Origin: Anolis carolinensis
Lineage: Eukaryota
Direction of reading: 5' to 3'
Assembly (NCBI RefSeq): GCF_035594765.1
Contig: NC_085843.1
Location: 242,707,971-242,771,970 of the forward strand
Length of the DNA stretch: 64,000 nucleotides
The position numbers and the translations under genes were made by a program. Under the pieces are notes generated by a model. That model was not told the DNA's origin. It saw nothing but the letters and a program-made list of their open reading frames with translations, and made no database searches. Each line of letters opens with the position of its first letter. The first letter of the stretch is position 1. Positions 40,395 to 51,883 of this stretch are shown in pieces.

Positions 40395-41916
40395 CAGGCA
40401 TAGGCAAACTTCAGCCCTCCAGGTGTTTTGGACTTCAACTCCCATAATTCCTAACAGCCTATCTGCTGTTACGAATTGTGAGAGTTCGTTGGAGATAGCA
40501 ACGTTCTCAAACCTCTTCAATCTAATGTTTTACCTGTTTATAATGTGTCGGTTTATTTCCTAAAGTGTATGTCTCTTTGGTTTGCAGTTTTCTTAGCTCT
40601 ATGTACTTGAGGCAGTGGGAGGGGCTGCAGACCATGTAACTGGTTTAGTGACTTTAGAATGCAGTTTTAAATAGAATGACACTTGAGGTATGAGTCTGTT
40701 TTGAGTACAGAAGCCAGTGTAGGAAGTTATCAGTCAGTTGAGGCTCGAGTTCCTTGGAAGTAGACTGTTATAAAAGAGAGTTGTATAGCCAATATAGTTG
40801 TGAAGAGACTGATAAAGACTGTAAGTTAAAGAAACAAACTGAAACGTTTTAAAGTTTAACCTGACAAGAAATGTACCTGTATATTTAAATACATGAAGTT
40901 GTGAGTAAAACAAACATGTTATTTCAAAGAAGCCTATTTGAATCTTTGTCTGCTGAGAGCATGGAATAGAAAGAAGATATTTACGTGTCCAGTGATCATC
41001 CATTAACCAATAAACTTCACCCCACCTAGCAGATTGAAAACAGCAATATGAGTAGATAAATAGGAACTGCATTAAAGTATGGAGATATTTTAGGCAGAAA
41101 AAAGGAGGAAAAGTTTATGAACAAGTTCTACAGCAAGGAGATGGAGTGACTACACCTCTCTGTGGACGAAACCGAGCACAGCCTTCAAAGATGCTGAAAA
41201 GATGGAGAAAAGCCTATGTAATCTATCTATTTGTCTTGTCATTCTATAACCGGCATTGAATGTTTGCCGTATGTGTTCTATGATCCGCTCTGAGTCCTCT
41301 TTGGGGTGAGAAGGGTGAAATATAAATACTGTAAGTAAATAAATAAATAAAGGAACACTCTTGAAATTCTGCTACTCAATAAATTATGATCCTGACAGGT
41401 CATAATCCCCGATAGGTTGCGATCCTGACAGCTCATAATCCTCAATAGGTCGTCATCCTGGCAGGTCATAATCCCCAATAGGTCACGATTCTGACAGCTC
41501 ATAATCCCCAATAGGTCATCATCCTGGCAAGTCATAATCCCCAATAGGTCACGATCCTGACAGGTCATAATCCCCGATAGGTTGTGATCCTGACAGGTCA
41601 TAATCCCCAATAGATCGTCATCCTGACAGATCATAATCCCTGACAGGTCATAATCCTCAATAGGTCGCTATGCTGACAGGTCATAATCCCCAGTAGGTCG
41701 TGATGCTGACAGGTCATAATCCCCGATAGGTCATGATGCTGACAGGTTATAATCCCCGATAGGTCATGATCTTGACAGGTCATAATCCCCAATGGGTCGT
41801 GATCCTAACAGGTCATAATCCCCCAATAGGTCGTGATAATCCCCAATAGGTTGCGATCCTAACAGGTCATAACACCATAGTCCAATAGAGTTGAAGTCCA
41901 AGTTTGCCCATGCCTG
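40395..41916. mobile_element. hAT MITE split by a ~1.4-kb LTR-like insertion (40487-41887)
   Basis: Outer TIRs CAGGCATAGGCAAACTT / AAGTTTGCCCATGCCTG with 8-bp TSD ATATAACG/ATATAACA. Inner insert CGTTGGA...TCCAATA with 5-bp TSD GAGTT. Confidence 0.75.
41388..41873. repeat. 33-bp minisatellite, about 15 units
   Basis: Unit GATCCTGACAGGTCATAATCCCC(A/G)ATAGGTC(A/G)T. The 11-aa periodicity is visible in ORF 41278-41634. Confidence 0.95.
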
Positions 41917-42181: not shown

Positions 42182-45100
42182 GCCCGGGGGCTCCGCTGCC
42201 GCCTCGGCGCTGAAGGGGTTACTCCAGCAATTCACCGCCATCACGGGTGAGCCGCGCGGAACCCCGGAACGGGCTGGGGAGGCCTTTGGATCGCGGGGGG
42301 CGGAAAGGAGAGAGGTGGGGAGGGTGCCCCCCCTCTCTCTCCCCCGCTCTCCCCCAAATGGGGCCTTGTGGAAGGAGCCGAGGCGCCGCCGGGCCTAGAG
42401 GTGTCTGTTGCGTAGGAGGAGCGGAAGGGAAATTCCTTTGAGGAAAGGCGGGTTTGTTGTGTGAGACAGGAAGACGATGGGCACTCAGACGCAACCCACA
42501 CAGGCAGGCCACAGGTCAGCGCAGTGGGACAGCCTCCCCTCAAGCGCTGCTCTGTGTTGGGGAGCATCGAGAATGGATGCAGTTTCACGCCACTTGACCG
42601 GACATGGCTCCATGCTATGGAATCATGGGAGTTGTAGTTTCACAAGGCCTTCAGGCTTGTCTGTCAAAAGAGTGCTGTGAATGAATACAATTTCACACCA
42701 CTTGAACTGACATGGCTCCATGCTATGGAATCATGGGAGTTGTAGTTTCACAAGGCTTTGAGGCTTGTCTGTCAAAGAGTGCTGTGAATGAATACAATTT
42801 CACACCACTTGAACTGACATGGCTCCATGCTATGGAATTATGGGAGTTGTAGTTTCACAAGGCCTTGAGGCTTCTCTGTCAAAGAGTGCGGTGAATGAAT
42901 ACAATTTCACACCCCTTGAACTGACATGGCTCCATGCTATGGAATCATGGGAGTTGTAGTTTCACAAGGCTTTGAGGCTTGTCTGTCAAAGAGTGCTGTG
43001 AATGAATACAATTTCAGACCACTTGAACTGACATGGCTCCATGCTATGGCGTCATGGGAGTTGTAGTTTCACAAGGCCTTTAGGCTTCTCTGTCAGAAAG
43101 TGCTGTAAATTACTGCAGTTTCACACCCCTTGAACTGACGTGGCTCTTGCCATGGCATTATGGGAGTTGTAGTTTTACAAGGCCTTTAGGCTTCTCTGTC
43201 AGAGAGTGCTGTAAATGAATGCAGTTTCACACCACTTGAACTGACATGGCTCCATGCTATGGCGTCGTGGGAGTTGTAGTTTCACAAAGCCCTTGGGCTT
43301 CTCTGACAGAGAGTGCTGTACATGAATGCCGTTTCATACCACTTGAAGTAACATACGTTTGTGTGGTTTTAATAGCTGATTTTAATGTATTAATATGCTA
43401 TAATCTTTTAACTTTCAATGATTTTAATATTTGTGTATATGTATCTATTCGTTGTTGTATGGCATTGAATATTGCCAACTTGGAAGCTGCTCTGAGTCCC
43501 CTTTGGGGTGAGAAGAGCAAAAAATATAGTAAATAAATAAATGGCTCAATTCTATGGAATCATGGGAGTTGTAGTTTCATGAGGCCTTTAGGCTTCTCTA
43601 TCAAAGAGTACCATAAATGAATGCAGCTTCACACCACTTGACCTGACATGGCTCAATGCTGTGACATTGTGGGTGTTGTAGTTTCACAAGGTCTTTAGTC
43701 TTCTCTGTCAGAGTGCTGTAAATGAATGCAGTTTCACACCACTTGATCTGACATGGCTCCATGCTATGGAATCATGGGAGTTATAGTTTCGCAAGGCCTT
43801 TAGGCTTCTCTGACAGAGAGTATTGTAACAGATGCAGTTTCACGCCACTTGACCGGACATGATGCCATGCTATGGCGTCATGGGAGTTGTAGTTTCATAA
43901 GGCCTTTAGGCTTCTCTGTCAGAGAGTGTCATAAATGAATGCAGTTGCACACCACTTGAACTGCCAAGACTCAATGCTATGGAATCATGGGAGTTGTACA
44001 TTAGTGAGGCACCAGCATTCTTTGGCAGAAGACAGCTAAAGACCTTGTGAAACTCCAACTCCCATGATTTCATAGCATAGAGCCTTGGCACTTCAACTGG
44101 TGACAAACTGCAAACAGATAAATTTAGTCATGTATGCACTCTCAAAGGGATGTAAGGGAACTTTCATGACACAATTCTTACACTTTTCTCTCTCTTTCAC
44201 TCCCTTTTGATGATGATGATGATTATATTTATTTATAACCCGCTTTATCTTCCCGAAGGAGACTCAAAGCAGCTTGAGTAAAACAGGATTAAATATAAAT
44301 AGTATTTTAAAATTCCCAGTTGAAAATCATTAAAACAAATTCTGTCTCGATGCTGAGACAGAGCTTTCCAAACATTTCATGTTAATGACACATGTTTAGA
44401 CATGCATCAATTCATGGTGCAGTAATTCAGTTTTTACTAGCAAACCAGAGGTTAAATCAACCCCTTATGGGAGATAACGGATACATACTTTAATTGTAAT
44501 AACGAAATGTACAGGGACACAACCTATCTCATGAAAACCTTTCATTTATATTTTTATGGTCTAAGAGACCTTTAACTTGGAATAGGTAAATATTGCAGGT
44601 GTATTGTTCTCCCAGCTTTCTTACTGCGTTTTTGTGTGATGCAAATTGAATGCTGAATTGGTCAGTTATTGCTGTATAAGGCCCCATCTACACTGACCAT
44701 TTAATGGAGTTTGAAGTTAGCTTCAAACTGCAGCAGCCAGACAGGAAATGCCCACAAAAAATTCCTAATGCACCTCAGTGTTCTGTGTCATTACCATTTG
44801 GGCCACCAACAGATTCCAGGTTTTCCTTTGTAATCATAGACACAGAGAAACCTTTTCCTTCAATACTGGTTTAAAACGTCATTAAATGACCCAGAAAAAT
44901 CTAAAAAAGCTCTCTAGCAGCTTTTTACCTAAAAGCCAATGAAATCAGATGTTTTTAAATTCCTCTCAGAACTGCCACAGTGCAGCACTGAGAGGAAATT
45001 ATCATTTGTAGAGAGTGAGGAATAATAATCTTATAGATGATGTGGACCACAGTTTGCAATAACTGTCATTAGTTATTCTGGCTGTGATTGATGGGATTGG

Positions 45101-47717: not shown

Positions 47718-50700
47718 TACTACTACTACTACTACTACTTGCAAATAGACATGCTTAAGATTGCATTCATAAAGTTTTCATTAGCAGTTTAACTTGGCAG
47801 TGTGAAATACACATTTAGAAATGCTGTTGTAGATTTTCAAAGCCGCATTTCCATGTTGTTTCTCTTCTGTACATCCAGTTTCCTCCTGTCTCAAAAAGAT
47901 ATGTTGATTTCTCTTTGGCTTCTCAAGGGTTCTCCATTGGAGGCAAGACTCAAATATGAGACAGTTGAAAGAGGCATAGTATTGTTTATATGTTGATAAT
48001 CTATTACACTCAATTGAGTCACCTAATTTTAATAGGGGTGTGCTATTTAATGCTTACTGCTGAATTAACTTAATCCAAGGGACAGAAATTGCAGTGTATT
48101 TACTTTATAAAATAAATATTAAATGAGTACTAAAATAATACTGTTTTTAAATCAAATTTTTAATTGGCTGTTCTTGTTATAATTCTAATTTTCTGATAGT
48201 CTCTATGTTAGGGGTATCAAAAATATTGCTGAGATTATGTTGAATGACAAAAGTACACTTGGTTGCATCACTAACCTCTCTTCCAGAGTCCAAAAGTACA
48301 TTTGGGGCAAAGAAATGCAACACAAAAACATTGTTGAATTGTAAATAATTTTTGGAATTTAAATTTTATACTGATAATTCCAAAATGATGGTTCGTAGAA
48401 ATGGGAGAAAAGGTGCATAAAGCCATTTTCATGTCTCTAATATTTTCTTTATAGGTAACCCCTGGCTATCTCATCCATATAAAGGGGCATTTTATTTAAG
48501 AGAGGGGCTATAGTTACTGATCCATTTCTTCTTGTTTTGAATGCATAAGACTGTAGAAGAACTGTTACTTCCCATTCCAGTTACTTCTGATTAATCTGTT
48601 TAGTAACTGTTTTTGATGTATAGGATCTCACCTGGTGTTATTACTTTCCGACACGATAAAAATTACTTTCAATAAACTGAAGGTTGACTTTACTTTGAGC
48701 TGTCTTTTAAAACTTTGTTTAAGAACTCATTCTCTTTTTCTTTGTGTCACAGGGGCCACCGAAAGCATAGGCAAGCATATGCTTGAAGCATGCAACAATA
48801 ATCTGGAAATGGCTGTCACTATGTTCCTGGATGGTGGAGGGATAGCTGAGGAACCCAGCACTAGTTCTGCAAGTGTATCAAACCTCCGGCCACATACAGA
48901 GTATGTGACTTCATAAAGAGCTGTATAATGAATATTAGCTTTGACAGATAATCAAGGGATTACTATAATAGTTCATAGTTATTCTCATTGAACTGATCTT
49001 ATAATGCCTTTCGGAGCTAGCTAGCTTCAAACTGTATTGAACAGACAACAAACTCACCTAGAAGCACACCTTAAAAGCTCTTAATGCTCACCAGGTCTCT
49101 CTGGTTTGTGTAATCACCATCCGGACCTCAAACTGGTTCCAGGATTTCCCATGTAATCATCTGCACAGCGAAACCACTTTCTTCAATACTGGTTTGAAAC
49201 TACATCAGAATTTCTTGAGCAACTTGCTTGTTGATTTAGTTAATTAAAGGGTATATCCTGGAATGGGAGGCAAAGACTTCAGCATCATGCAAACTATTCA
49301 CACAAATGCATATCTGAATTAAAATGATCACATTTAATCATCACCACCACCATTATTTAGCCAGATGTTGTGATATTGATAATAAAGGTGGTGGTAATGA
49401 TAAGTGTGATCATTTTAGTTCCCATAGGCATTTGCGTGAATAGTGTGGAAAAGACTAAAATATGACTAGCAGATTGTCTTCAGATCTCCTGGTGGTCTCC
49501 TGCTGTTTTACCGTGTTCGTATTGTAGCATGCCAAAAAGAAAACATAAGATATAAATAAATATGCTAGTTGGGTTTATATATTGTAGGCAGTACCCCAGT
49601 GCTGTTACTAGAGTGCTGGTATATGTTTGACATCGAAACCCTTATTTTGTCAAAGGGCCAGGATTTTTAATTCCTTATAATAACTAAATTGTAATATGAT
49701 ATACTGAATTCCTTAATGTATAAATGTATAAATATTATTGGAGTTCGGTTTGCTCATTTACATAGTGTATGATAACTTTGAACAGTTCTGCTATACTCAT
49801 ACTGTTGAGACACAGAGGCCTTAAAGAGCCACACACTATTTTAGTCCAACAAAAAGTATATTATAAAGCAACAAAAATACACTTAGAGACACTTAACTTC
49901 AGTGTCTCTAGCCAAAACTCAAGGGTTTGCCCAAACTGGGCTTCAAAAAGCAACAGGAAAATAATCCTGATTAAACAAAAAGATAAACTGGATTAAACGG
50001 AAAGAAAACCCAGAATACTCAGTTCAAAATAAACAGCAATCAAACAGTGCTATAAAAAAGAGTTCCACTAGATAGCGCTGTGCCCAAAGAGTTAGTTGCA
50101 AATAAGCGTTGCCAAAGCCAGTCCAGTCCCAGAGTCGCCGTAAAAGGAAGCCAAACGAAGCATCGTTTCTCAGGTAGTCAAACCGAGCCGTAGTAGAGGT
50201 AATCCAAGAATCCAGGAAGGGAGAGAGCTACACTCACGATAATCCAGTCCAAACGTCCACCAAGGTAGTCAAACAGAGCCGTAGTTGAAGCAATCCAAAG
50301 GTCCAGGAAGGGAGAAAGCCACACTCACTATAAACCAGTCCAGACGTCCAGGAATCCCAGGTAACAGAATTCCAGGCTGCAGAACCCAGACCCAAAATCC
50401 CAACACGAAAACAGGCAGCGACAAAACACATACGATACGTAACCGACACTTTGCCTTCTGCAAAGATTTCCCATTTCAGAGCCTACTTTTAACTTACACA
50501 TCATTATCCGATGATGAGCTGGCCTCCACCCCATCATCATCTCCAGCAGCTGTCCTTGTTTCCACACCCAAACCCCTGTTTCCATCTCTCCAGTTCCTCC
50601 ATCTTCTGTCAAGACTTAGGTTTCCCCATGATTCGGATGTACCACCCGTTTGCCAATCCTCACGTCCTGCAGACCCCACACGCGTGCTGCCAGCAGTTGG

Positions 50701-51883
50701 TTCTTCACATATGTTCCCAATCTCTTGTACCCTAGTCCAATCCACTGCATTCTCCCCATTCTCGTCACTCCCAGACCCATCATCCCCAGAGAAACCCATA
50801 AACGATTCATCATCTGTGGGAGCAGTAAATATATCCCGGAGTTTCTTCCTCTCCCGTTCTTCATCTGATTCCTGCTCCCGAGTAACCCTTTTTGTGTCTC
50901 TATTCCCATCCCCCACATTTCCTTCCACGTCCATCAACTCCCCGCCACTTGAAAACCCTTCAAAAATCCGTAGGCGCCATAAGTATATCCTGAATCCGTT
51001 CCCTTTGCTGTTCTTCGTCTGACAGCTGCTCACGATTACCCCTTGTTCTCCTACTGGTATTGCTACTACTGCTTGCAACATTACTTGCTGACTCAACTAC
51101 AACACATACTTAGTGAATAGCTATGAAGAGTGCAATTTCAGGAATAAAGTTGTGCTATCAGTCTTTTTTACTAACTTTAATTTGCTTTTTTTATGGAATG
51201 TCATTTATCTGTGCTACACAAAGTCCTATTTTGCTATGTACCTAAAATGTGTTCATTCAAGCAGTGGAATTAAAGTATTGTACCATATTATTAGTGTTTG
51301 AAACTACAGTGCATTATAGATTTTGCAGGCACAAAATATACATTTTGACTAGATGGATATAGTTTTTTCTTTCTTCGAAATGCATTGTATTACTTACTGT
51401 CACGGTCAAACTCATGTGCTTTTTATCTTTACAGAGATGAAGTAAGAGCACCTATTCCTCAAAAGCAGGAAATTCTGGTAGAACCTGAGCCATTATTTGG
51501 AGGTAAGTAAACTACATTGTTCTTCCCTTCCCTGGTGGTAACTAGGAATGAGCTTTGACAGATTTCCTCCAGGTCTCTCTTGCTCTTCTGAGTCGTTGTA
51601 GCATGTGGCCTTCCGCTATTGAAGTATTTATACTACTTTCATTCCCCAGTAGTGTAAATTATGCATAAAATACAGCCTTTTATGCTTAATTGGCTGTCTA
51701 GAGAATATGTTATTTCATATATTCTGAGTTATGATGCTGCTTCCGTTTCCATTTTTTTAAAAATGAAGTGAGAATGTACTAACCATAAAGCCAATTCCTG
51801 TATAATATAATATATAATACTCTGTGACACATAAATACTTACAGTATTGTAATGAGCTACCAGGAGAGGCATGTAAAAATACA

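What the first reader, a model, noticed from the sequence alone, without database searches (positions are those of the whole stretch)
50494..51081. Solo LTR encodes an intact acidic ORF with a LEDGF/TFIIS-N-domain interaction motif (LRDIFTAPTDDESFMGF)
Seen: inside the TSD-bounded solo LTR (49803-51104), the minus strand is open from ATG 51081 to stop 50494 (195 aa, acidic and disorder-like). Positions 50841-50791 encode LRDIFTAPTDDESFMGF. Established (recalled): the IBD-binding/TND-interacting motif (TIM) is a short helix ending in IF, an acidic CK2-phosphorylated linker, then (D/E)xExFxGF. Examples are CDCA7L/JPO2 VADIFNAPSDDEEFVGF, IWS1 IADIFG...EEEFTGF, KMT2A and POGZ. It binds LEDGF/PSIP1, HDGFL2 and other TND proteins, the same surface lentiviral integrase uses to target transcribed genes. 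The LTR peptide matches all three parts, including a T-D-D-E CK2 site. Inference: this retrotransposon family may encode a U3-located accessory protein, architecturally like MMTV sag or nef, that mimics a host TIM. It could tether integration or transcription to H3K36me3/elongation machinery; this copy does sit inside an intron of a housekeeping gene. A TAG immediately upstream in frame argues it is not simply pol read-through. I know of no description of such an LTR-encoded TIM.
Basis: partly seen in the sequence, partly recalled or inferred. Interest (0 to 1): 0.85.

Follow-up and report, generated by a model that had tools for sequence, protein, structure and literature searches.

The report
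Lizard retrotransposon integrase mimics LEDGF partners
This is the leftover end-piece of a lizard jumping gene whose insertion enzyme has lost its usual chromatin-reading domain and ends instead in copies of a short motif that host proteins use to dock on LEDGF, so it likely grabs the same host protein as HIV integrase and would be steered into active genes.

Summary
The solo LTR, its 5-bp TSD, the 195-codon frame and the motif are real. But the frame is not an accessory gene. In internal-containing relatives it is the integrase C-terminal tail of a Tf1/sushi-type Gypsy retrotransposon, read across the polypurine tract into U3, where relatives carry a chromodomain. The family carries up to three tandem motifs; sister families with intact pol frames carry one. 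Inherited variants show purifying selection only in the pol frame (pN/pS 0.36 against 0.85, p=0.0016). The top PDB match is the LEDGF–JPO2 complex, and an element-only profile finds the host's own CDCA7/CDCA7L motifs. Complex prediction with anole LEDGF gives weak support (0.51, controls 0.00). Most likely the tail tethers integrase to LEDGF/HDGFL2, by host-style motif mimicry rather than the lentiviral mode. Binding is unmeasured, insertion bias into genes could not be tested, and one young sister family lacks FxGF. Nine literature searches (listings only) showed no such report. New variant of integrase tethering; interest 0.75.

The parts
49803..51104 (-). Solo LTR (1302 bp, TG...CA) of a Tf1/sushi-type Gypsy family ('family A', my label)
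   Evidence: 23 of 26 scoreable loci are solo LTRs with exact 5-bp TSD
49798..49802 (.). Target-site duplication, left copy (CATAC)
51105..51109 (.). Target-site duplication, right copy (CATAC)
50494..51103 (-). U3-encoded C-terminal tail of integrase (about 200 codons, no start codon of its own); broken in this copy by an 8-nt deletion near 50965
50953..50995 (-). TIM-like repeat 1, split across two frames in this copy
   Evidence: FxGF codons present in 27 of 30 copies
50791..50841 (-).
   Evidence: FxGF in 27 of 30 copies
50671..50721 (-). TIM-like repeat 3, weaker; FxGF lost in this copy
   Evidence: FxGF in 20 of 30 copies
50966..51081 (-).
50486..50493 (-). TATA-like box just after the pol stop codon (assignment inferred)
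50451..50461 (-). 11-nt self-primer, complementary to the family's primer-binding site
   Evidence: predicted, matching PBS found after family LTRs
50172..50350 (-). Two ~92-bp tandem repeats downstream of the TATA-like box (86% alike; copy number varies in the family)
48753..48900 (+). Host exon upstream of the insertion (UBA-like domain; gene name UBXN7 recalled)
51435..51502 (+). Host exon downstream of the insertion (AG/GT bounded; assignment recalled)

Best explanation
The acidic frame in this solo LTR is the C-terminal tail of a Gypsy retrotransposon integrase, encoded by the 3' LTR in place of a chromodomain, and its repeated JPO2-like motifs likely bind the host chromatin readers LEDGF/HDGFL2 and would tether integration to transcribed genes. 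Shown: pol runs protease-RT-RNase H-integrase-SH3(GPY/F), crosses the polypurine tract and continues about 200 codons into U3; no chromodomain lies there; one to three helix + acidic linker + FxGF motifs do; the frame was under purifying selection while the family was active. Inferred: after polyprotein processing the tail stays on integrase as a disordered arm; CK2-type sites in the linker raise affinity as in host TIMs; tandem motifs add avidity; LEDGF/HDGFL2 hold the complex on H3K36-methylated gene bodies. The window copy is a dead solo LTR that only preserves this tail.
For: In-frame continuity from integrase GPY/F into the LTR motifs in 6 of 8 family-A copies, 5 of them stop-free from GPY/F to an FxGF; same layout in intact 1214-1219-aa pol frames of sister families B and D and in UniRef models P0278/P0284. 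Pfam: SH3_Tf2-1 but no Chromo in the family-A tail, while a neighbouring element gives both. Families A-D form one chromodomain-less clade (100/99; 99) among chromodomain-bearing relatives. Selection: variants shared by 3 or more of 30 copies 34 syn / 45 nonsyn / 0 stop (pN/pS 0.36) against singletons 60 / 178 / 12 (0.85-0.86), Fisher p=0.0016; 5 other frames and the post-stop region p=0.17-1.0. Motif window identity A2 vs B and D 12 and 13 of 22, downstream tail 20 of 72 and 23 of 73. Best of 177,635 PDB sequences is 6EMO, LEDGF IBD-JPO2 M1 (E=0.024 single; 1.8e-4 profile). The element-only profile finds three host CDCA7/CDCA7L motif exons as its only significant hits in 60 kb of six-frame host DNA. 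Host has PSIP1 and a second IBD gene. Complex prediction: score 0.51, best of 3 controls 0.00, runs agree in at least 91% of contacts, partner pLDDT at least 63; rated weak support: the mark was reached by 51 of 78 solved and 2 of 108 mismatched pairs, but at 0.60 or under by only 5 of 78 solved and by all 4 mismatches that passed.
Against: No insertion-site evidence: family-A loci on contigs beyond C6 were 2 of 40 against about 15% of bases, so no enrichment on small chromosomes (recalled as gene-dense), though the chromodomain control was as low (4 of 150 rows). Young sister family C, in the same clade, has the helix and acidic linker but no FxGF, so FxGF is not needed for success. The complex score may come from memory of 6EMO, and peptides and disordered chains are untested for that mark. 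Within family A the motif core has 1 shared replacement in 16 codons against 37 in 162 elsewhere, too few to show extra constraint. Alignments A1/A3 were picked with a pattern that required P and FxGF, so invariance of those columns is circular; families B and D, however, were found through the integrase domain. FxGF motifs do not say which TND protein binds.
Confidence: 0.6

Rival explanations
1. The tail does bind TND proteins but not to choose the target site: it serves chromatin retention, nuclear entry, or recruitment of elongation factors that keep the new copy transcribed or unsilenced.
For: All sequence and structure evidence speaks to binding, not to site choice; B/D LTR starts are spread at near-average density on the one stretch listed (100 in the first 38 Mb of C1, 5,257 in all); TIMs bind many elongation factors (PMC9987994).
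Against: The motif sits exactly where chromoviruses carry their targeting domain, as with the LTR-encoded CR motif of plant CRM elements (PMC3059260); LEDGF tethering sets lentiviral sites.
Confidence: 0.25
2. The tail is a generic acidic, disordered extension kept for charge or spacing; the FxGF likeness is coincidental and nothing binds a TND.
For: Family C thrives without FxGF; chromodomain family F also reads into its LTR with an acidic tail and no TIM; extra constraint on the core within family A is not shown.
Against: In-register identity with JPO2 M1; motif kept across families whose LTR DNA is otherwise not alignable; tandem duplication of just this unit in family A; shuffles 1 of 3000.
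Confidence: 0.11
3. One reading: a stand-alone U3 accessory protein started at the LTR ATG, like MMTV sag or nef.
For: The window copy has a 195-aa ATG frame; internal Met codons exist and an NCBI model starts at one (P0125).
Against: ATG frame is 195 aa in 1 of 27 copies, shows no selection (p=0.65; 5 columns whose commonest codon is a stop, row labelled 'frame+1'), and the acidic frame is continuous with integrase.
Confidence: 0.04

Closest known systems
Tf1/sushi-group chromoviruses (Ty3/Gypsy) of fungi and vertebrates
   Same: PR-RT-RH-IN order, GPY/F (SH3_Tf2-1) module, 11-nt self-priming PBS, 5-bp TSD (group described in PMC6317226 passages)
   Different: No chromodomain; replaced by an LTR-encoded tail with TIM-like motifs
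Plant CRM group A centromeric retrotransposons (CR motif)
   Same: Chromodomain replaced by a non-chromo targeting segment at the integrase C-terminus, with pol extending into the 3' LTR that encodes it (PMC3059260 passages)
   Different: Different sequence, host and presumed target (centromere versus transcribed genes); CR partner was unknown in that paper, here a candidate partner is named
Host TND-interacting motifs: JPO2/CDCA7L M1 (PDB 6EMO), KMT2A (2MSR), IWS1, POGZ
   Same: Helix + 8-aa acidic linker + D/ExExFxGF, near-identical register to JPO2 M1
   Different: Carried by a selfish integrase, encoded in an LTR, in tandem; binding not measured. POGZ is a domesticated transposase-derived LEDGF binder (only the reference title seen), the nearest conceptual precedent
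Lentiviral integrase-LEDGF tethering
   Same: Same host domain predicted; same predicted outcome (PMC9987994 passage)
   Different: Lentiviral integrase uses folded surfaces (recalled), not a host-type linear motif; unrelated lineage, so this would be an independent solution
Ty1 (AC40), Ty5 (Sir4) and MLV (BET) integrase C-terminal tethers
   Same: Short C-terminal integrase motif binding a host chromatin factor (Ty1 from abstract; Ty5 and MLV recalled)
   Different: Different partners; not LTR-encoded; not copies of a known host motif class

Membership tests
Ty3/Gypsy, Tf1/sushi group | pol order protease-RT-RNase H-integrase | tested here: met
   Pfam on successive stretches of the C6 copy and intact sister models
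Ty3/Gypsy, Tf1/sushi group | Self-priming PBS complementary to the RNA 5' end, not a tRNA | tested here: met
   11-nt complement in 4 of 5 sister elements; PBS predicted from the window LTR found after 3 family LTRs, each followed by gag-like frames
Ty3/Gypsy, Tf1/sushi group | Phylogenetic placement with named sushi/Tf1 references | tested here: inconclusive
   Trees place it among SH3_Tf2-1/chromodomain elements but no named sushi or Tf1 sequence was included
Chromovirus in the strict sense | Chromodomain at the integrase C-terminus | tested here: not met
   No Chromo hit in the family-A tail or in P0278/P0284; control elements hit
TND-interacting motif (FxGF type) | Short amphipathic helix ending in bulky hydrophobics | tested here: met
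   Sequence aligns to the JPO2 M1 helix; helix itself inferred
TND-interacting motif (FxGF type) | Acidic linker of 8-16 aa with Ser/Thr | tested here: met
   8-aa linker with a T-x-x-E site (definition; CK2 consensus recalled)
TND-interacting motif (FxGF type) | D/ExExFxGF consensus | tested here: met
   Exact match in repeat 2 (consensus from PMC8022399 passage)
TND-interacting motif (FxGF type) | Measured binding to a TND, enhanced by CK2 | not testable with these tools
   Only a weak-support prediction
Integrase targeting domain | Biases insertion sites | tested here: inconclusive
   No gene annotation available; strand-skew proxy too noisy; contig tally uninformative
LTR accessory gene (MMTV sag / nef architecture) | Own conserved start, separate from pol | tested here: not met

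The most novel reading that the evidence does not exclude
A clade of lizard Gypsy retrotransposons swapped the chromodomain for copies of a host JPO2-type motif, independently reaching the LEDGF/HDGFL2 tether that HIV uses; more widely, U3 acts as an interchangeable cassette of host chromatin-binding motifs on vertebrate chromovirus integrases (FxGF TIMs in families A, B, D; a helix-only form in C; an HMGN-like RRSAR motif in F; chromodomain plus TIM-like motifs in P0186), each setting a different insertion landscape in one genome.
Probability: 0.45. Interest if true: 0.9.

Novelty: new variant of a known kind. Interest (0 to 1): 0.75.

Why it matters
How vertebrate LTR retrotransposons choose insertion sites is largely unknown, and LEDGF tethering is treated as a lentiviral trait. 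A Gypsy integrase with a host-style LEDGF-binding motif would show convergent use of the same host domain by a different binding mode. The genome holds thousands of LTRs from young families with one motif (B, D), a reduced motif (C), a chromodomain (F) or no tail (E), so the targeting question can be tested directly from existing annotation. It also explains a class of acidic 'uncharacterized' anole gene models as integrase tails.

Tried and rejected
Pfam on the window ORF and on the overlapping 245-aa plus-strand frame: nothing significant; the plus-strand frame is open in the family but shows no selection (p=0.29), so it is read as a by-product of acidic codons. First searches for the internal region with a short-gap purine pattern and a tRNA-type PBS found none; the element is self-priming. 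ESM Atlas: no usable hit. Insertion bias by strand skew: 10 host stretches gave T-A skews of -0.054 to +0.053 and 10 family-D flanks -0.22 to +0.05, too noisy, dropped. Capture from host CDCA7L: 33 of 45 bases match over the motif (my hand count), with no flanking similarity looked for at DNA level; capture versus convergence is unresolved. A chromodomain-plus-TIM family in this genome: none among 20 loci read. Wider spread: of 149 representative proteins examined, 137 had a readable tail, 77 matched a rough chromodomain pattern and 1 (P0186, unnamed source) had acidic FxGF motifs; all 10 named profile hits of 11 were Anolis carolinensis, but only 7,999 candidates were scored. Tail labels in the tree come from a rough pattern and are blank for the family-A rows, whose stretches end before the tail. 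Earlier-findings look-ups were empty. The POGZ paper was not held.

Full report
1. Observation. Window 49803-51104 is a solo LTR on the minus strand, TG...CA, flanked by CATAC on both sides, between two plus-strand exons of a gene with a UBA domain (the name UBXN7 is recalled). The frame 51081-50494 is open for 195 aa and holds the stated motif at 50841-50791. A TIM-like pattern of my own arose in 1 of 3000 residue shuffles and 1 of 500 base shuffles. The genome search gave 1,491 first-look candidates, of which 40 were scored; the 29 other copies fetched are 80-88% identical. Of 30 loci fetched, 26 could be scored at both ends and 23 have an exact 5-bp TSD.

2. The ATG start is an accident of this copy. 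In sister copies the acidic frame is open from LTR base 2 with no start codon and holds three motifs in register; 12 of 30 copies are open throughout. FxGF codons are present in 27, 27 and 20 of 30 copies for repeats 1, 2 and 3. The window copy has an 8-nt deletion inside repeat 1 (shared with L003), which joins an unrelated ATG frame to the acidic frame, and it has lost FxGF in repeat 3. The ATG frame is 195 aa in 1 of 27 copies that keep it and 51-53 aa in 19.

3. It is the integrase tail. A polypurine-tract pattern found LTRs preceded by internal sequence; upstream lies a Gypsy integrase whose GPY/F module reads through a ~35-aa linker and the tract into the LTR frame. Of 8 family copies with this region, 6 cross into the motif frame, 5 of them stop-free from GPY/F to an FxGF; 2 are frameshifted near the tract. 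Four of the 8 are of the window's own subfamily, and 2 of those 4 are in frame. Pfam gives protease, RT, RNase H, integrase zinc finger, core and SH3_Tf2-1 in order and no chromodomain, while a neighbouring element gives SH3 plus Chromo. An 11-nt self-priming PBS is present in 4 of 5 sister elements. The PBS predicted from the window LTR was found 8 times with up to one mismatch; 3 of these follow family LTR ends and precede gag-like frames. Self-priming marks the Tf1/sushi group (PMC6317226, passages).

4. Sister families (labels mine). The same integrase-to-U3 read-through occurs in young families with intact frames: B (1219 aa) and D (1214 aa; 2 of 2 elements examined had identical LTR pairs) carry one FxGF motif; C (1207-1217 aa) has the helix and acidic linker without FxGF. 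B/D-type LTR starts number 5,257 exact matches, tail-less family E 423. A-D form one clade without chromodomain (100/99, 22 rows; 99, 16 rows, quick method); its relatives, including family F of the same genome, mostly carry one. F also reads into its LTR but has no TIM in 20 loci read. UniRef models P0278 and P0284 hold RT-RNase H-integrase-SH3 and the motif in one protein. All 10 named hits of the motif profile are Anolis carolinensis. One unnamed protein, P0186, has a chromodomain followed by two TIM-like motifs, and Podarcis P0198 has a weak FxGF after a chromodomain-like stretch that Pfam does not call.

5. Selection. Counting per column against the commonest codon in 30 copies, variants shared by 3 or more copies are 34 synonymous, 45 replacement and 0 stop (pN/pS 0.36); singletons are 60, 178 and 12 (0.85-0.86); Fisher p=0.0016. 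The five other frames and three post-stop frames give p=0.17-1.0. So the tail was functional protein while the family was active and decayed after insertion. Extra constraint on the motif core within family A is not shown (1 shared replacement in 16 codons against 37 in 162). Across families the 22-aa motif window is 12-13 of 22 identical (A2 vs B, D) against 20 of 72 and 23 of 73 downstream, and the LTR DNAs do not otherwise align.

6. The motif. The TIM definition is a helix, an acidic linker of 8-16 aa and an optional FxGF that matters most for LEDGF and HRP2 (PMC9987994, first part of the text); the consensus is D/ExExFxGF (PMC8022399, passage). Repeat 2 meets all three. The best of 177,635 PDB sequences for the window ORF is 6EMO, LEDGF IBD fused to JPO2 M1 (E=0.024; 1.8e-4 with the profile, and the KMT2A peptide 2MSR at E=0.22, below four thymidylate kinase chains at 0.12-0.13). 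A profile built only from element sequences finds three host CDCA7/CDCA7L motif exons as its only significant hits in 60 kb. The profile rows were chosen with a pattern requiring P and FxGF, so that part is circular. Folding the window peptide with anole PSIP1 IBD gave 0.51 against 0.00 for the best of 3 controls, at least 91% agreement, partner pLDDT at least 63: weak support. The mark was reached by 51 of 78 solved and 2 of 108 mismatched pairs, but at 0.60 or under by only 5 of 78 solved and by all 4 mismatches that passed; a like complex is solved, so it may be memory.

7. Mechanism. Shown: an LTR-encoded, selected, disordered-looking integrase tail with one to three JPO2-like motifs where relatives have a chromodomain (about 0.95). 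Inferred: it binds a TND protein, LEDGF/HDGFL2 most likely (about 0.75), and this tethers integration to transcribed chromatin (0.6 overall). Rivals: binding for another purpose (0.25), generic acidic tail (0.11), accessory ORF (0.04). Insertion bias is the gap: no annotation was available, the skew proxy failed, and family-A loci on small contigs were 2 of 40 against about 15% of bases, with the chromodomain control as low (4 of 150). Family C shows that FxGF is dispensable in this clade.

8. Known and new. [quoted passage not shown] Lentiviral use of LEDGF is the only case named under viral mimicry in the TND review, which does not mention transposons. POGZ, a transposase-derived host protein, binds LEDGF (reference title only). 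Nine searches (listings and abstract starts only) showed no report of a TIM on a retrotransposon integrase. Subscription papers, supplements and Repbase/Dfam entries were not seen and may mention the extended frame. Verdict: new variant of a known kind (integrase tethering tail), interest 0.75.

Noticed in passing
L136-L155 (e.g. L139:1288-1578 minus; G000 C3:281.64 Mb): Young chromodomain family F also reads about 100 codons into its LTR and most copies end in RRSARI, close to the HMGN nucleosome-binding core RRSARLSA (PMC12487698 passages): a possible acidic-patch anchor. No PDB match.
   Followed up: partly
L068-L076, L082, L087, L089, L092: Young family C keeps the helix and an acidic Ser-rich linker but no FxGF; it resembles helix-only TIMs (recalled) and might bind other TND proteins.
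   Followed up: partly
P0186 (unnamed source); P0198 (Podarcis muralis): Gypsy integrases with a chromodomain or chromodomain-like stretch followed by FxGF motifs: a possible intermediate or an independent gain.
   Followed up: partly
family A, B, D tails (window 50719-50742 and 50581-50601): Two further conserved islands, an acidic W-T-R-V stretch and a W-x-x-W-R-D-G stretch, are shared across families; function unexplained.
   Followed up: no
L083: A family-C tail continues in frame into a family-F-type LTR tail, apparently a nested LTR insertion that swaps the C-terminus.
   Followed up: no
L024, L030, L053/L058, L054/L057: Family-A copies often host nested insertions of other Gypsy LTRs or whole elements, including an intact 1646-aa family-E element.
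   Followed up: partly
L100 (G000 C2:143.72 Mb): Processed PSIP1/LEDGF pseudogene with a stop inside the IBD.
   Followed up: no
window 50285-51022 plus strand: A 245-codon antisense frame is open across the family but shows no selection signal.
   Followed up: yes
In the rows listed, B/D LTR starts are often single (solo or truncated) whereas family E is almost all paired full-length copies.
   Followed up: no
window 41325-41856 and 42561-44040: Minisatellite arrays of 33-bp and about 107-bp period.
   Followed up: no
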